IMG/VR virus record: IMGVR_UViG_3300043772_000843
Origin: an uncultured virus (IMG/VR IMGVR_UViG_3300043772_000843)
Lineage: Duplodnaviria > Heunggongvirae > Uroviricota > Caudoviricetes
DNA: 20,000 nt
Reading direction: 5' to 3' (one strand)
This document shows, in pieces, positions 1,779 to 11,225 of the stretch; position 1 is the first letter of the stretch, and every line of letters starts with the position of its first letter. The position numbers were made by a program, and so were the translations under genes. Below the pieces are notes generated by a model. That model saw only the letters and a program-made list of their open reading frames with translations, searched no databases and was not told where the DNA came from.

Positions 1779-2306
1779 TTAGCTCTCCTTAAATTTCAAC
1801 GCCTTGTGCCCGTGCGTGTCTAATTGCATATGACATGGTCTGCACACAGTTCTACCATTGTCAACGGCATACCGCAACTCCGGAAAAGAGCACCATGGTT
1901 TAATGTGGTCAGCTTCCAGATATCCACCACGAACGCTACAGATTTGACAGGTCCAGTTGTCTCTTGTAAAAACAGCTTTTCTCCAATCTCGATACGGAAA
2001 CTGAGACATAGCTTGTTTACGCTCTGATCGCTTACCTCCACGCCAATTTGGGTGCTCCGGACCGCATACCTGATTTTTTCGCTGAATTTCTGAGATTTTT
2101 TGGCAAGTTTCGTCAGTATGTCCTCTTTTTTCTGTGGGTACCAAGTCAGGATGTCCTTTTGTAAACAACCCTTTTAGTTCTCTACCCGCAAAAAAGCAGG
2201 GCTTACTGCAAAACTTTTTCCGGCCTTTGGCAGCCCACGGCTGAACTTCAAACACCTTTTCACAGTGTTTGCAAGTCAAAGTAACTTTGGGCTTTGCCGC
2301 AGGCAT
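1779..2306 (-). CDS. HNH homing endonuclease with N-terminal Zn ribbon and NUMOD3-like motif
   Basis: CKHC...CSKPC, GHTDETCQKISE, NWRGG, then RDNWTCQIC...DHIKPW...NGRTVCRPCH. AT-richer than its flanks (26/60 G+C at 2101-2160). Confidence 0.88.
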   Translation of the reverse strand: MPAAKPKVTLTCKHCEKVFEVQPWAAKGRKKFCSKPCFFAGRELKGLFTKGHPDLVPTEKRGHTDETCQKISEIQRKNQVCGPEHPNWRGGKRSERKQAMSQFPYRDWRKAVFTRDNWTCQICSVRGGYLEADHIKPWCSFPELRYAVDNGRTVCRPCHMQLDTHGHKALKFKES

Positions 2307-3149: not shown

Positions 3150-3566
3150 CTATGCAAAGCGCAACAGCGCAGAAGCGGCTGTTGCCGCAGGGAGTTGAAT
3201 GGTGAAAGTACCTGACGCCGTCTTATCCGCACCAAAGTCCAGCACCGCGATGGCGCGGTTGGCCTTGGTCTCGTTGTAGATCAGCCCGCCCCGGCAGACG
3301 AATGAGGCGTTGGTGAACACCGGGTTGTCGAAGGTGACGTAGGCCGTCGTACCGGAGAGGAGGACTTGGACATTGACGAGGGGGATACCACCCGCGATGT
3401 ACCCCGCACCAGACACTTCCCCCGTGGCAGTGTAAACCGTCGTGGCTTGGCTCAGGTTTGCCGCAGCGGTGTAGAGCGCGAGCTTCAGCGTGTCAGTGTC
3501 GAGGTCATGAATACCAAGCCAAGACTCCTGCTTGAACGACGAACACATGCCTTGGAGGATTGGCAT
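3150..3566 (-). CDS. Putative virion structural/tail protein
   Basis: MPILQGMCSSFKQE...DTLKLALYT...VLDFGADKTAS. The ATG overlaps the HNH stop (TGATG) and GAGGGAG lies upstream; GTG at 3569 is an alternative start. Confidence 0.75.
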   Translation of the reverse strand: MPILQGMCSSFKQESWLGIHDLDTDTLKLALYTAAANLSQATTVYTATGEVSGAGYIAGGIPLVNVQVLLSGTTAYVTFDNPVFTNASFVCRGGLIYNETKANRAIAVLDFGADKTASGTFTIQLPAATAASALLRFA

Positions 3567-4201
3567 CACGCAACTCCCTCTACGAGACTGTTACCTTTGC
3601 GTATGTTATCAATCCAAGGGATAACCTGCAAATTTTCTGGGACGTGCAGGCCCGAAACAAGCGCACCTTGCAACGGTATGATGTGGTCAACGTGCCACAC
3701 AAAACCGAACATTTTTGTCCTCAATGCGGCCAGTTTATAAGCCTCTTGGATTACCCAAAGATCGTCACTACTAAGCCATTTTGGTGTCCGCAGAAGTTTT
3801 GCCGCACGCCGCTTAGCTGTATCCGCATTCTTTGCGCCAGGATGTCGTTGGCGGTGCGCAGCAGCATACTCTTTGGCTTTTTCAGGATGCGCAGTCATCC
3901 ACTCCTTAACACGCAAACTCATCTTTTCGCGGTTTTGCTTTTGGTATTGACGGTCTAGTTCCCGCTTTTTAACAACAAACTCTGGGTTTTGCCGTTGTTT
4001 TACATACTGTGTTTTTGTCCATTCCCTGAGTTTTTCAGGGTTATTTTTCCTGCACTTAACCAGTGTCTCTTTAGCACACTGCACGCAAGCGCCGGAAACC
4101 CTACGAAGCCCTTCCAATTCAGGATGTTTTTTGCAGGGCGAGCCGTAACAGGTAGGAAGCCCTTTGGCTATCGCATTTTGTCGTGTTAGGCGTTCGTTCA
4201 T
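3566..4201 (-). CDS. HNH endonuclease (free-standing, homing type)
   Basis: CKKH...CVQC Zn motif, basic helical linker, WHVDHIIPLQG..VSGLHVPENLQVIP..DNIRKGN. Low GC (24/60 at 3961-4020). ATGA overlap with the upstream gene. Confidence 0.88.
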   Translation of the reverse strand: MNERLTRQNAIAKGLPTCYGSPCKKHPELEGLRRVSGACVQCAKETLVKCRKNNPEKLREWTKTQYVKQRQNPEFVVKKRELDRQYQKQNREKMSLRVKEWMTAHPEKAKEYAAAHRQRHPGAKNADTAKRRAAKLLRTPKWLSSDDLWVIQEAYKLAALRTKMFGFVWHVDHIIPLQGALVSGLHVPENLQVIPWIDNIRKGNSLVEGVA

Positions 4202-9079: not shown

Positions 9080-9334
9080 TCAGCACTTCCATGCACGCAA
9101 GGATTTGTTGATACGGGAGTTTGGGTCTTTTGCCGTTTTGGAGCTTGTCAGCTTCGCCTTCATGCCTTTCATCCGGGCACAAAAGGAGTCACGACGAGGC
9201 CCGCCTTCAGGCTGCGGGGCCTTCAACCCCGGCTTGCCCGGGTTGGCTGCGTTGTAGCTGGCGCGGCCTTTGGCGTTGAGACCCCCGGCTTCAGACTTGC
9301 CTTCCTTACGCGTCCACGCAGGTGTCTTAGCCAT
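9080..9334 (-). CDS. Small basic phage protein (possibly DUF6321-like)
   Basis: MAKTPAWTRKEGKSEAGGLNAKGRASYN...RRDSFCARMKG...DPNSRINKSLRAWKC. Family name recalled, not verified. Confidence 0.8.
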   Translation of the reverse strand: MAKTPAWTRKEGKSEAGGLNAKGRASYNAANPGKPGLKAPQPEGGPRRDSFCARMKGMKAKLTSSKTAKDPNSRINKSLRAWKC

Positions 9335-9608
9335 AGAAAATGGTGACTTTGGCCGCAGTAGGCAGCGTCACATAAACGCCGTTTTCAAACAGAATCCCCT
9401 CTCCGGGGATCAAGTTGGCAAAGGGGTTGTTGGTGTTTGCGGGGACATTGAAGCGCAAACGCTCAAGCCCCGTAGCGGTGCCATCGGTGAAGATGATGTC
9501 ACCGGCTGTACCACCAGAAAGGCACTGGTAGCCTTTCAGCCGCACCCGCCCCGAAACAAGGGAGCCCGTAGCTTCTAGGTGCGCTGATTTGACGTCAGTC
9601 TGCATCAT
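9327..9608 (-). CDS. Small putative virion structural protein
   Basis: MMQTDVKSAHL...GRVRLKG...IPGEGILFENGVYV...VTIFYG. GGAG at 9615-9618 favours the ATG at 9608/9605. Confidence 0.78.
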   Translation of the reverse strand: MMQTDVKSAHLEATGSLVSGRVRLKGYQCLSGGTAGDIIFTDGTATGLERLRFNVPANTNNPFANLIPGEGILFENGVYVTLPTAAKVTIFYG

Positions 9609-9627
9609 GGTGAACTCCAATAGGAGA

Positions 9628-9645
9628 ACGCCCCCGGAGGGGCGT
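9628..9645 (-). other. Intergenic RNA hairpin with UNCG tetraloop
   Basis: mRNA ACGCCCC-UCCG-GGGGCGU with no good U-tract, so a stability or pause hairpin rather than a clear terminator. Confidence 0.5.
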
Positions 9646-9650
9646 CAACG

Positions 9651-10151
9651 TCAGTCTTGGAAGGCGGTCGGGTTCACTGAACCATCAGGCTGACGCTGGA
9701 CGTAGCTCACCGTGACGACAATCTGTCCCGACGTGGCGTTGCCCGTCGTCGCCGTGAACGTGGCTTGAAGCATGACATCAGAGGTGCCGATGTTGTCGCA
9801 GTCGTCCACTTGAAGCCCCGCGTCGACCGTAGCCTGAGCCGCACGGCCCTTGGTCGTTGCCAGATTCACCGACTCCAGATACTGGTTGTCGTCCGACGCA
9901 TTGCCCACAATCATCGCAACCTGCGAGATGGAGTTGCCCGCCAGCGCCACGGTCTTGTCGGCGATGATCGAGACGATCTTCGACCCCGCAGGCAGCGTGA
10001 ACAAATTCTGAGCCGGAGCCGCAGAAGTCAACGCCACACCCGACATGTTGATGGTAGCGGACTGCGTAAGCAGCACCAGACCCGTATTGCGGCCAGGGTT
10101 GTAGCGCTGGGTGCCCGAGCGGAGCGGGCCGGAGAAGGTTGAGAAGCTCAT
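9651..10151 (-). CDS. Putative virion structural (head fibre/decoration-like) protein
   Basis: 166 aa, MSFSTFSGPLRSGT...LFTLPAGSKI, beta-rich; first gene after the major capsid terminator; GAGG RBS. Confidence 0.75.
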   Translation of the reverse strand: MSFSTFSGPLRSGTQRYNPGRNTGLVLLTQSATINMSGVALTSAAPAQNLFTLPAGSKIVSIIADKTVALAGNSISQVAMIVGNASDDNQYLESVNLATTKGRAAQATVDAGLQVDDCDNIGTSDVMLQATFTATTGNATSGQIVVTVSYVQRQPDGSVNPTAFQD

Positions 10152-10240
10152 GGCTTTTCCTCAGTTGTGCCTACCGTCGTGAGGGGCGTCTGCCGGGACA
10201 GTCGATAGGCCGGTCATGGTGCCCGGGGGCCCTTGCGGGC
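10152..10240 (-). ncRNA. Putative cis-regulatory structured RNA leader (double pseudoknot)
   Basis: Five mutually compatible pairings in about 90 nt, one of which covers the RBS; see findings. Confidence 0.6.
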
Positions 10241-10248
10241 GTAGCCCG

Positions 10249-10257
10249 AGCCTAGCA
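10249..10257 (-). promoter_or_regulatory. Possible extended -10 promoter (TGcTAGGCT)
   Basis: TG-n-TAnnnT directly after the major capsid terminator and directly before the structured leader; poor -35. Confidence 0.4.
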
Positions 10258-10267
10258 CACTTGGCCC

Positions 10268-10295
10268 AAAAAGAAAAGGCCCCCGAAGGGGCCTT
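10268..10295 (-). terminator. Intrinsic terminator after the major capsid gene
   Basis: mRNA AAGGCCCC-UUCG-GGGGCCUU followed by UUCUUUUU. Confidence 0.9.
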
Positions 10296-10313: not shown

Positions 10314-11225
10314 TCAGCTCGCGCCGGGGGAGCCGTACACGCCCAGCGGGTCAGACCAGCCGAACGAGTAACGCTCGCGGGCCTTGTAGCGGTTGTTCCC
10401 CGTGTCGAAGTCAGCGTCCATCGAGGTGGACATCGGGACGCGCACGAAGTGCTTCAGGCCGTTCGGAACGTCAGTGGTCAGGAACCACGCGTTCGGGTCG
10501 GTCAAGAAGTGGTTGACGGTGTACCCTTCCGGGATCGAGCCGTTGTTCTTCAGCGCGTTGATGTCGTTGTCGGTGGTGCCGACGCGGAGGTTGGTCTCCA
10601 GCAGGCGGGTTGCGACGAACATCAGGGCCGGGGGGATGATCAGCTTCCGGGGCTTGGCAGCGATCAAGAGGCCCTTCTCATCCGTCCACGCAGCGATCTG
10701 GATCACTGCGTTCTCCAACGCGGTCTCGTTCAGGTCCGTAGCCACCGAAGGACGGTTGCTGTTGGTACCCCCGGAGACCAGCGGGTGGGCAGTGCTGAAC
10801 AGCGAGACACCATCACCGCCCGGGAAGGCAGCGTTGAAGCCGTTGTTCAGGATGTTCGCGGCCTTGACCTGCTTGCTGTAGGCCATAGCCCGAGCCAGCG
10901 ACTTGGTGTAGCGCGTGCTCAGACTGTCGTACAGGTTGTCTTCCATCGCCTCTTCGGTGATGGAGAAGCCCATAGCGATGGTCTCGTGGTTGTAACGAGC
11001 GGTCCAGGCTTCCTGCGCGTTGTCATACGCAATGGCCTGACCTTCGTACTTCACCGGAGCGGCAGAGAAACCAGCGAGCTTGGTCTCCTCTTCGAACGAG
11101 CGGTCGGAGGTCTCCGTTTCGTAGATCTCCTTGTGCTCCTCGGCGTAGCGCTTGTACTCCATGCCGAACAAGGCGTTCAGGCCGGGGAGAAGCTCCTTGA
11201 GGAGCTGTGCACGAGAAATTGCCAT
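10314..11225 (-). CDS. Major capsid protein (HK97 fold inferred; Mu gpT-like)
   Basis: 303 aa: MAISRAQLLKELLPGLNALFG, KQVKAANILNNGF, GDGVSLFSTAHPL, KPRKLIIPPAL, ARERYSFGWSDPLG. GAGGAG RBS, strong codon bias, followed by a terminator. Confidence 0.9.
   Translation of the reverse strand: MAISRAQLLKELLPGLNALFGMEYKRYAEEHKEIYETETSDRSFEEETKLAGFSAAPVKYEGQAIAYDNAQEAWTARYNHETIAMGFSITEEAMEDNLYDSLSTRYTKSLARAMAYSKQVKAANILNNGFNAAFPGGDGVSLFSTAHPLVSGGTNSNRPSVATDLNETALENAVIQIAAWTDEKGLLIAAKPRKLIIPPALMFVATRLLETNLRVGTTDNDINALKNNGSIPEGYTVNHFLTDPNAWFLTTDVPNGLKHFVRVPMSTSMDADFDTGNNRYKARERYSFGWSDPLGVYGSPGAS

What the first reader, a model, noticed from the sequence alone, without database searches (positions are those of the whole stretch)
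10152..10240. Compact double-pseudoknot RNA leader that can sequester the RBS of the first post-capsid gene
Seen: the minus-strand leader reads GCCC-GCAA-GGGC cc CCGGG caccaugaccg GCCUAUCG a CUG UCCCGG CAG acgcc CCUCA cga CGGUAGGC acaac UGAGG aaaagcc AUG. It offers five compatible pairings. (1) A GNRA hairpin at 10229-10240. (2) An 8-bp stem, 10203-10210 with 10169-10176. (3) An inner CUG/CAG stem. (4) That stem's loop CCCGG (10193-10197) pairing with upstream CCGGG (10222-10226), giving pseudoknot 1. (5) CCUCA (10180-10184) pairing with the Shine-Dalgarno UGAGG (10159-10163), giving pseudoknot 2. It sits right after a terminator and a candidate -10. Inference: a phage riboswitch-like or protein-responsive translational switch, or a packaging-related RNA, setting the ratio of capsid to accessory proteins.
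Basis: partly seen in the sequence, partly recalled or inferred. Interest (0 to 1): 0.8.

Follow-up and report, generated by a model that had tools for sequence, protein, structure and literature searches.

The report
Knotted leader RNA of cement gene
A roughly 70-base stretch at the very start of the messenger for a phage capsid "cement" protein folds into a conserved double knot that clamps the ribosome landing site; it is an uncatalogued, more elaborate relative of a catalogued RNA motif of unknown function and probably sets how much cement protein is made.

Summary
Real and conserved. All five pairings exist; 0 of 400 shuffles give the four-helix topology. Across 183 distinct homologous leaders, the four core helices covary. 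The GNRA hairpin is private to this strain. The RNA begins at a predicted promoter after the capsid terminator, and stays with the next gene, a jelly-roll cement protein, when other genes insert between (25 of 68). SD pairing as in this window is a minority form (22 of 183). In all forms, however, helix P4 lands on the initiation region: on the SD, just 5' of it, or on the start codon, where it tracks codon 2 (129 of 132). No Rfam match here, but Rfam Mu-gpT-DE (RF03012) fills the same slot in Roseobacter phage CRP-902 and shares the core. The models do not detect each other, so this is a variant, not a member. A covarying alternative 5' hairpin (42 of 169) suggests two states. Most likely a translational-control leader; ligand unknown; no expression data. 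This scan has already reported the family on other DNA many times.

The parts
10314..11225 (-). Major capsid protein gene (303 aa), upstream of the element
   Evidence: Pfam PF25209 E 2e-12, weak Mu-like_gpT PF10124 E 9e-9; PHROG 371 major head protein; 63% identical to the HTVC023P capsid protein
10268..10295 (-). Intrinsic terminator of the capsid gene
   Evidence: 8-bp stem plus U-tract; similar hairpins follow the capsid gene in homologues
10249..10257 (-). Candidate extended -10 promoter; inferred +1 near 10242
   Evidence: Sequence; not called by the consensus scan; in homologues the best TAnnnT lies 7-9 nt before the first helix in 52 of 103 (form C), 17 of 32 (B), 61 of 84 (A). Inference, no mapped start.
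10229..10240 (-). GNRA hairpin, strain-specific 5' addition, not part of the conserved motif
   Evidence: Present; 3 of 177 homologues by pattern, only the window's own strain with a G/C stem
10222..10226 (-). P1 5' strand (pairs with loop L3; alternatively with 10210-10213 in hairpin P0)
   Evidence: Swap control: native 138 of 143 strong versus 34% of swapped pairs with a different partner word; P0
10210..10213 (-). 3' strand of alternative hairpin P0 (excludes P1, overlaps the first base of P2)
   Evidence: Covaries with the P1 word in 42 of 169 homologues; forms first in prefix folding of the window
10203..10210 (-). P2 5' strand
   Evidence: Anchored columns 78-99% paired at positions 1-9
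10199..10202 (-). Conserved junction A and P3 5' strand (A-C-N-G)
   Evidence: A, C and G invariant in alignment A1; middle pair changes on the same branch 23 of 25 times
10193..10197 (-). P1 3' strand in loop L3 (pseudoknot 1)
10188..10192 (-). P3 3' strand and conserved A-C (C-N-G-A-C)
10180..10184 (-). P4 5' strand (anti-SD in this subtype)
   Evidence: Swap control: native 141 of 143 versus 25% swapped with a different word
10177..10179 (-). Conserved [A/C]-G-A junction before P2 3' strand
10169..10176 (-). P2 3' strand
10159..10163 (-). P4 3' strand holding the Shine-Dalgarno (pseudoknot 2)
   Evidence: subtype shared by 22 of 183 homologues
9651..10151 (-). Capsid cement (decoration) protein gene, 166 aa, controlled gene
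   Evidence: No Pfam or PHROG hit; profile hit to KHP30 cement gp15, E 0.0016; AlphaFold beta-sandwich, pLDDT 76; Foldseek best hits 7eel_H (Pam1 capsid asymmetric unit, E 4.7e-6) and 7dn2_1; 34% identical to the DSL-LC04 protein annotated 'cement protein'

Best explanation
A cis-acting translational operator at the 5' end of the cement-gene transcript. Shown: the structure (P1-P4) is conserved by covariation, travels with the cement gene, and always puts helix P4 on or against the ribosome-binding site. Inferred: transcription restarts after the capsid terminator; the 5' end pairs into loop L3 (P1), stacks on the 3-bp P3 and builds a small invariant core, which holds P4 over the SD (this window), just 5' of it, or over the start codon (relatives). 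Closed P4 lowers initiation. A phage head protein that binds the invariant core (free cement as feedback repressor, or the far better conserved capsid protein) shifts the open/closed balance, so that cement output matches capsid output although the two genes are transcribed separately. The broad claim (cis leader acting on translation initiation) I put near 0.8; the protein-ligand step brings the whole to about 0.45.
For: Covariation of P2 and P3: 92.7% of cells paired, 12 of 13 pairs with double changes, 0 of 500 shuffles reach the score, slid controls 25-37%; same-branch changes 0.49-0.88 versus 0.21-0.36 for non-partners on a 135-tip capsid tree. P1 and P4 pass swap controls. P4 partner ends -7 to -18 from AUG (143) or on the start codon (131) in 274 of 275 elements. 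In the start-codon forms the loop word follows codon 2 (GCC with Ala 95, CCC with Gly 34, no cross cases, 3 other of 132), and all 14 changes fall on the same branches. Element stays before the cement start across 329-1287 nt inserts (25 of 68). One copy per record in 5 of 5. About nine invariant or near-invariant junction bases suit a binding surface. KHP30 cement has 9 chains in its entry, so cement is a high-copy protein whose leader cannot simply stay shut (inference). Precedent: T4 gp32 represses its own translation via an upstream pseudoknot (passage in PMC10690425).
Against: No probing, reporter or binding data; RNA contigs laid on the region were uninformative. In 79 of 143 form-C leaders the G residues of the SD are unpaired, so simple occlusion cannot be the general mechanism. 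The downstream proteins span 55-285 aa and four BLAST clusters under the same RNA, and the window's cement has few basic residues (sequence), which fits poorly with autogenous binding. One locus (L007) has a cement start with no element, and 6 of 12 annotated relatives show none. P4 and the SD:anti-SD duplex have similar isolated energies (-5.3 and -5.6 kcal/mol).
Confidence: 0.45

Rival explanations
1. Ligand-free throttle set by folding kinetics: during transcription the local hairpin P0 captures the 5' strand first, delays P1 and the core, and leaves the RBS open for a limited time before the knot closes; output is a fixed burst per transcript.
For: P0 covaries with the P1 word in 42 of 169 leaders across four words; of 52 leaders with any such word, 42 carry their own; the P1 word changes 6 times among 36 carriers on the tree. 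P0 forms first in prefix folding of the window. Precedent: MS2 maturation-gene leader (passages of PMC4615214).
Against: P0 is absent from 127 of 169, including all 71 CUAGG-type leaders; CCGG is self-complementary, which makes 32 of the 42 cases easier to get; nearest-neighbour folding cannot score pseudoknots.
Confidence: 0.25
2. Mainly a 5'-end stabiliser or translation enhancer for a late operon: the first bases are paired in every form, shielding the end from 5'-dependent decay, and the knot next to the SD acts as a loading platform rather than a block.
For: The -10 lies 7-9 nt before the first helix in all three forms; SD free in 79 of 143 form-C leaders; the window's extra hairpin also sits at the inferred 5' end; cement is needed in high copy (inference).
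Against: Does not explain why P4 pairs with the start codon and tracks codon 2 in 131 elements, or with the whole SD in 21-22.
Confidence: 0.15
3. A small-molecule or ion riboswitch of a new class, with P4 as the ligand-stabilised pseudoknot over the RBS.
For: Compact pseudoknotted fold with invariant junction bases and RBS pairing, an anatomy typical of translational riboswitches such as preQ1 and SAM-II (recalled).
Against: The only controlled gene is a virion protein; no Rfam riboswitch match; only about nine conserved bases, and wide swapping of peripheral helices between forms.
Confidence: 0.07
4. A self-cleaving ribozyme, a released small RNA, or a packaging RNA.
For: Double-pseudoknot compactness as in HDV-like and glmS ribozymes (recalled); Rfam files Mu-gpT-DE as 'Gene; sRNA'; position in the head module.
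Against: Strand order differs from the HDV-like and twister orders as I recall them; no Rfam ribozyme match; no terminator after it in 9500-10150; fixed spacing to the start codon and codon-2 covariation point to a cis role.
Confidence: 0.08

Closest known systems
Mu-gpT-DE RNA motif (Rfam RF03012, 53 positions, filed as sRNA; origin in the Weinberg 2017 survey is recalled, its supplement could not be read)
   Same: Same slot: after the capsid terminator and a -10, directly before a homologous cement gene (CRP-902, 72.3 bits; its protein 30% identical to the window's, E 2e-12). Same core order P2-A-CNG...CNG-AC-loop-[A/C]GA-P2'. Its loop also pairs with the initiation region, on the start codon (91 of 92). 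A marine form B combines this window's 5' half with the RF03012-like 3' half (40 elements).
   Different: RF03012 has a 4-bp P2 that holds part of the SD, a long P3 hairpin and no P1 (24 of 92 at threshold, no better than swapped). The window's form has an 8-10-bp P2, a 3-bp P3, a 5'-end pseudoknot P1 and P4 on or beside the SD. Neither model finds the other.
T4 gene 32 translational operator pseudoknot
   Same: Phage leader pseudoknot upstream of a gene needed in stoichiometric amount, bound by protein to control translation (passage in PMC10690425).
   Different: Single pseudoknot, ssDNA-binding protein as ligand, no sequence or structure likeness tested or seen; here the ligand is unknown.
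MS2 maturation-gene 5' leader (delayed folding)
   Same: A metastable 5' hairpin postpones a long-range pairing that hides the SD of a virion-protein gene (passages of PMC4615214).
   Different: RNA phage, cloverleaf without pseudoknots, one protein per virion; here P0 is found in only a quarter of leaders.
Polynucleobacter-1 RNA (RF01718)
   Different: No match at E <= 10 in 0 of 5 carrier records; 141 positions against about 70 here.

Membership tests
Mu-gpT-DE (RF03012) | Scores above the Rfam gathering cut-off (49 bits) | tested here: not met
   No hit in the window, in 20 homologous loci or over cut-off in 0 of 5 form-C records; positive controls pass: CRP-902 and 3 of 5 records
Mu-gpT-DE (RF03012) | Lies downstream of a Mu-gpT-like major capsid gene, before a start codon | tested here: met
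   Capsid gene hits PF10124; element at 10159-10226 before ATG 10149-10151
Mu-gpT-DE (RF03012) | Core outer stem-A-CNG...CNG-AC-loop-GA-outer stem | tested here: met
   Consensus printed against the window and 183 homologues
Mu-gpT-DE (RF03012) | 4-bp outer stem whose 3' strand is part of the SD, with long inner hairpin | tested here: not met
   Window has 8-bp P2 clear of the SD and a 3-bp P3 with a 6-nt loop
Mu-gpT-DE (RF03012) | Reciprocal detection by a model of the window's form | tested here: not met
   Model R1 over 78 loci, mostly form A: best form-A scores E 0.66 and 1.1; the one strong hit (L282) is a form-C leader
Polynucleobacter-1 (RF01718) | Covariance-model match | tested here: not met
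   0 of 5 records at E <= 10
Known riboswitch or ribozyme classes in Rfam 15 | Covariance-model match | tested here: not met
Riboswitch (any class) | Selective small-molecule binding that changes expression | not testable with these tools
   Needs in-line probing and reporters
Protein-bound translational operator (gp32 or S15 kind) | Structure on or next to the RBS of the controlled gene | tested here: met
   P4 partner on the start codon or ending -7 to -18 in 274 of 275
Protein-bound translational operator (gp32 or S15 kind) | Direct binding and repression by a protein | not testable with these tools
   No RNA-protein assay available

The most novel reading that the evidence does not exclude
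The leader is the sensor of a previously undescribed feedback loop in phage head assembly: one small RNA core, reused in at least four architectures across freshwater phages, pelagiphages and roseophages, is read by an unassembled head protein (or, bolder, by a small ligand) and toggles a pseudoknot over the SD or the start codon, with a co-evolving 5' strand exchange (P0 versus P1) as the switch.
Probability: 0.3. Interest if true: 0.75.

Novelty: new variant of a known kind. Interest (0 to 1): 0.5.

Why it matters
It gives a testable job (translational control of a cement gene) to an orphan Rfam motif filed as an sRNA, and widens it to forms that the Rfam model misses, in a phage group described as among the most abundant in the ocean (passage in PMC10149686). 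Cultured carriers exist (HTVC023P, HTVC027P, CRP-902, DSL-LC04), so the question of how a tailed phage matches cement to capsid output when a terminator separates the genes can be tested directly. The scan has noted the family before; what this window adds is the SD-clamping subtype, the codon-2 covariation count and the alternative 5' hairpin.

Tried and rejected
Rfam scans of the window, of 20 homologous loci and of one element: only terminator look-alikes and a 12-bit edge match to RF03012. A loose helix descriptor gave many chance hits and stopped with an error; replaced by an anchored one. Ten of 285 distinct parses were dropped as false or mis-started before counting (three were real form-A leaders with TTG starts); L012, L196, L341 and L003 are mislabelled by the automatic form call (seen) and were left in, except L012. 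Searches fixed some letters by pattern, so invariance of P3 and of form-A P2 in those loci is no evidence; P3 variation is taken from the 84 protein-selected leaders. GNRA hairpin as part of the motif: rejected. A second pairing of the P4 loop with the start codon in form C: no better than swapped (7.7 versus 7.8). RNA evidence: 20 runs held small shares, none half; four laid runs were contigs of relatives, the three declared RNA runs did not cover the leader: uninformative. Host: MAG contigs carry unrelated taxon labels, so no host is inferred. No assembly for the window was held. Literature: 'Mu-gpT-DE' occurs in one work only (Rivas 2020, one passage and supplement rows seen, listing two extra covarying pairs); searches found nothing, 77 only unrelated papers, 75 one survey. 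For Weinberg 2017 I saw main-text passages only. For Fremin 2023 I saw passages and tables; its alignment files could not be read, so this form may be among its 8495 unnamed candidates.

Full report
Setting. The window is the head and packaging module of a tailed phage on the minus strand: terminase, portal, GroES-like protein, major capsid protein at 10314-11225. The capsid protein is 63% identical to that of pelagiphage HTVC023P and 55% to Roseobacter phage CRP-902. The next gene (9651-10151, 166 aa) has no Pfam or PHROG hit, but a profile of 51 relatives hits the KHP30 cement protein gp15 (E 0.0016), the AlphaFold model is a beta-sandwich (pLDDT 76) whose best Foldseek hits include a 140-residue chain of the Pam1 capsid unit and gp15, and it is 34% identical to a protein annotated as cement in phage DSL-LC04. 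I call it a cement protein.

Observation. All five pairings are present at the stated places. None of 400 shuffles reproduces the four-helix order. I name the helices P1 (5' strand with loop L3), P2 (8 bp), P3 (3 bp) and P4 (loop with SD).

Conservation. A model built from 69 leaders finds the element in 68 of 79 loci fetched by capsid similarity. Of the 11 misses, 7 end within 529 bases of the capsid stop, 3 have no cement start within range, and 1 (L007) has a cement start without the element. Pooling 402 sequences gave 285 distinct parses, 275 kept. On the model alignment P2 and P3 are 92.7% paired, 12 of 13 pairs show double changes and no shuffle reaches the score (that alignment leans towards the structure). 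Columns fixed only by the conserved junction letters give the same answer: 78-99% pairing at P2 positions 1-9, with the partner column carrying the highest mutual information at each, and same-branch changes of 0.49-0.88 against 0.21-0.36 for non-partners. P1 and P4, which have variable spacing, were tested by swapping partners between sequences: 138 of 143 and 141 of 143 native pairs reach the threshold against 34% and 25% of swaps with a different word. The GNRA hairpin fails: only the window's own strain has it.

Which gene it belongs to. In 25 of 68 loci 329-1287 bases lie between the capsid stop and the element (one insert is GIY-YIG by Pfam, two others tested have no Pfam hit), and the element stays before the cement start (23 by pattern, one cut, one variant N-terminus). 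Loci found by DNA pattern alone lead to a cement-type start in 70 of 80. There is one copy per record in 5 of 5 records, 4 of them complete. The best -10-like hexamer lies 7-9 nt before the first helix far more often than the 13% expected from an even spread (52 of 103, 17 of 32, 61 of 84), so the RNA most likely starts within a few bases of the structure. This is inference; RNA data were uninformative.

Relation to known RNAs. Rfam gives no match to the window or to 20 homologous loci. In CRP-902, however, RF03012 Mu-gpT-DE scores 72.3 bits in exactly this slot, before a homologous cement gene. Its consensus has the same core: outer stem, A, CNG..., CNG, AC, loop, GA, outer stem. Collecting both kinds by pattern shows three main forms. 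Form A (92; RF03012) has a 4-bp P2 holding part of the SD, a long P3 and no P1. Form B (40) has P1-P3 as in the window and the loop of form A. Form C (143, the window) has P4 upstream of the start codon. HTVC027P and 023Pt_psg01 show a fourth variant with a 2-bp P3 (read by eye). The forms interleave on the capsid tree (20 changes among A, B and C; FastTree, many weak branches), so they are interchangeable occupants of one slot. The two models do not detect each other, so the window's RNA is a variant related by position, core and an intermediate form, and not a member of RF03012.

Where P4 lands. In forms A and B the loop pairs with the start codon and codon 2: loop GCC goes with Ala codons (95), CCC with Gly codons (34), with no cross cases and 3 others among 132; all 14 changes on the tree are joint. 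In form C the partner ends 7-18 nt before AUG; the G residues of the SD are all paired in 21, partly in 43, free in 79. The window's CCUC/GAGG subtype has 22 members, 13 of them in one supported clade with the window.

A possible switch. In 42 of 169 leaders, including the window, the P1 5' strand can instead form a local hairpin P0 with the bases at the foot of P2, and the P0 word follows the P1 word across four variants (6 changes among 36 carriers). P0 forms first in prefix folding. It is missing from the largest subtype (0 of 71), so it is a lineage feature.

Mechanism. Shown: fold, linkage to the cement gene, placement of P4. Inferred: a translational operator whose invariant core is read by a head protein, matching cement to capsid output across a terminator (0.45); rivals are a ligand-free kinetic throttle as in MS2 (0.25; PMC4615214 passages), a stabiliser or enhancer (0.15), a riboswitch (0.07) and a ribozyme or free RNA (0.08). 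Against autogenous control: the cement proteins are diverse (55-285 aa, four clusters).

Novelty. Not found in print; the alignment files of Weinberg 2017 and Fremin 2023 could not be read and may hold this form. This scan has reported the same family on other genomes at least ten times; those notes are not independent evidence, and the Mu-gpT-DE link, the cement identity and the start-codon pairing were each tested here. Verdict: real, conserved, a new variant of a known orphan motif; interest 0.5.

Noticed in passing
L026 1706-1774, L054 2548-2616, also L133, L207, L253, L266: A 23-aa PqqA precursor peptide gene sits between the capsid terminator and the leader in several relatives (pattern; Pfam PF08042 for the two tested): a phage-borne PQQ precursor gene, possibly a hint to methylotroph hosts (recalled, not tested).
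   Followed up: partly
25 of 68 capsid loci, e.g. L003 2466-3431, L051 2479-3117, L028 2604-3362: The gap between capsid terminator and leader is an insertion hot spot; L003 carries GIY-YIG/NUMOD3, the other two tested have no Pfam hit.
   Followed up: partly
window 10241-10251 and L004, L088, L092, L097 upstream of P1: In the window's clade an inverted repeat runs from the -10 into the P1 strand. It could be a DNA operator, or a hairpin that blocks P1 only in read-through transcripts from the capsid gene.
   Followed up: no
L115 3471-3553 (HTVC027P) and L116 about 3441-3531 (023Pt_psg01): Fourth variant of the leader with a 2-bp P3, read by eye; scores only 17.6 bits or less with model R1.
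   Followed up: partly
L002 and L087 (same contig): A phage with 91% identical capsid protein has a different gene after the capsid gene, and the leader plus cement gene lie more than 1.5 kb further on.
   Followed up: no
window 1779-2306 and 3566-4201: Two endonuclease-like genes among the structural genes: the first hits Pfam HNH, the second has an HNH-like end but no Pfam hit.
   Followed up: partly
window 9080-9334: Stand-alone DUF6321 gene two genes after cement, probably on the same transcript as the leader.
   Followed up: no
G010 (record behind L310): Two RF03012 matches over the cut-off in one 69-kb record; may be an assembly overlap.
   Followed up: no
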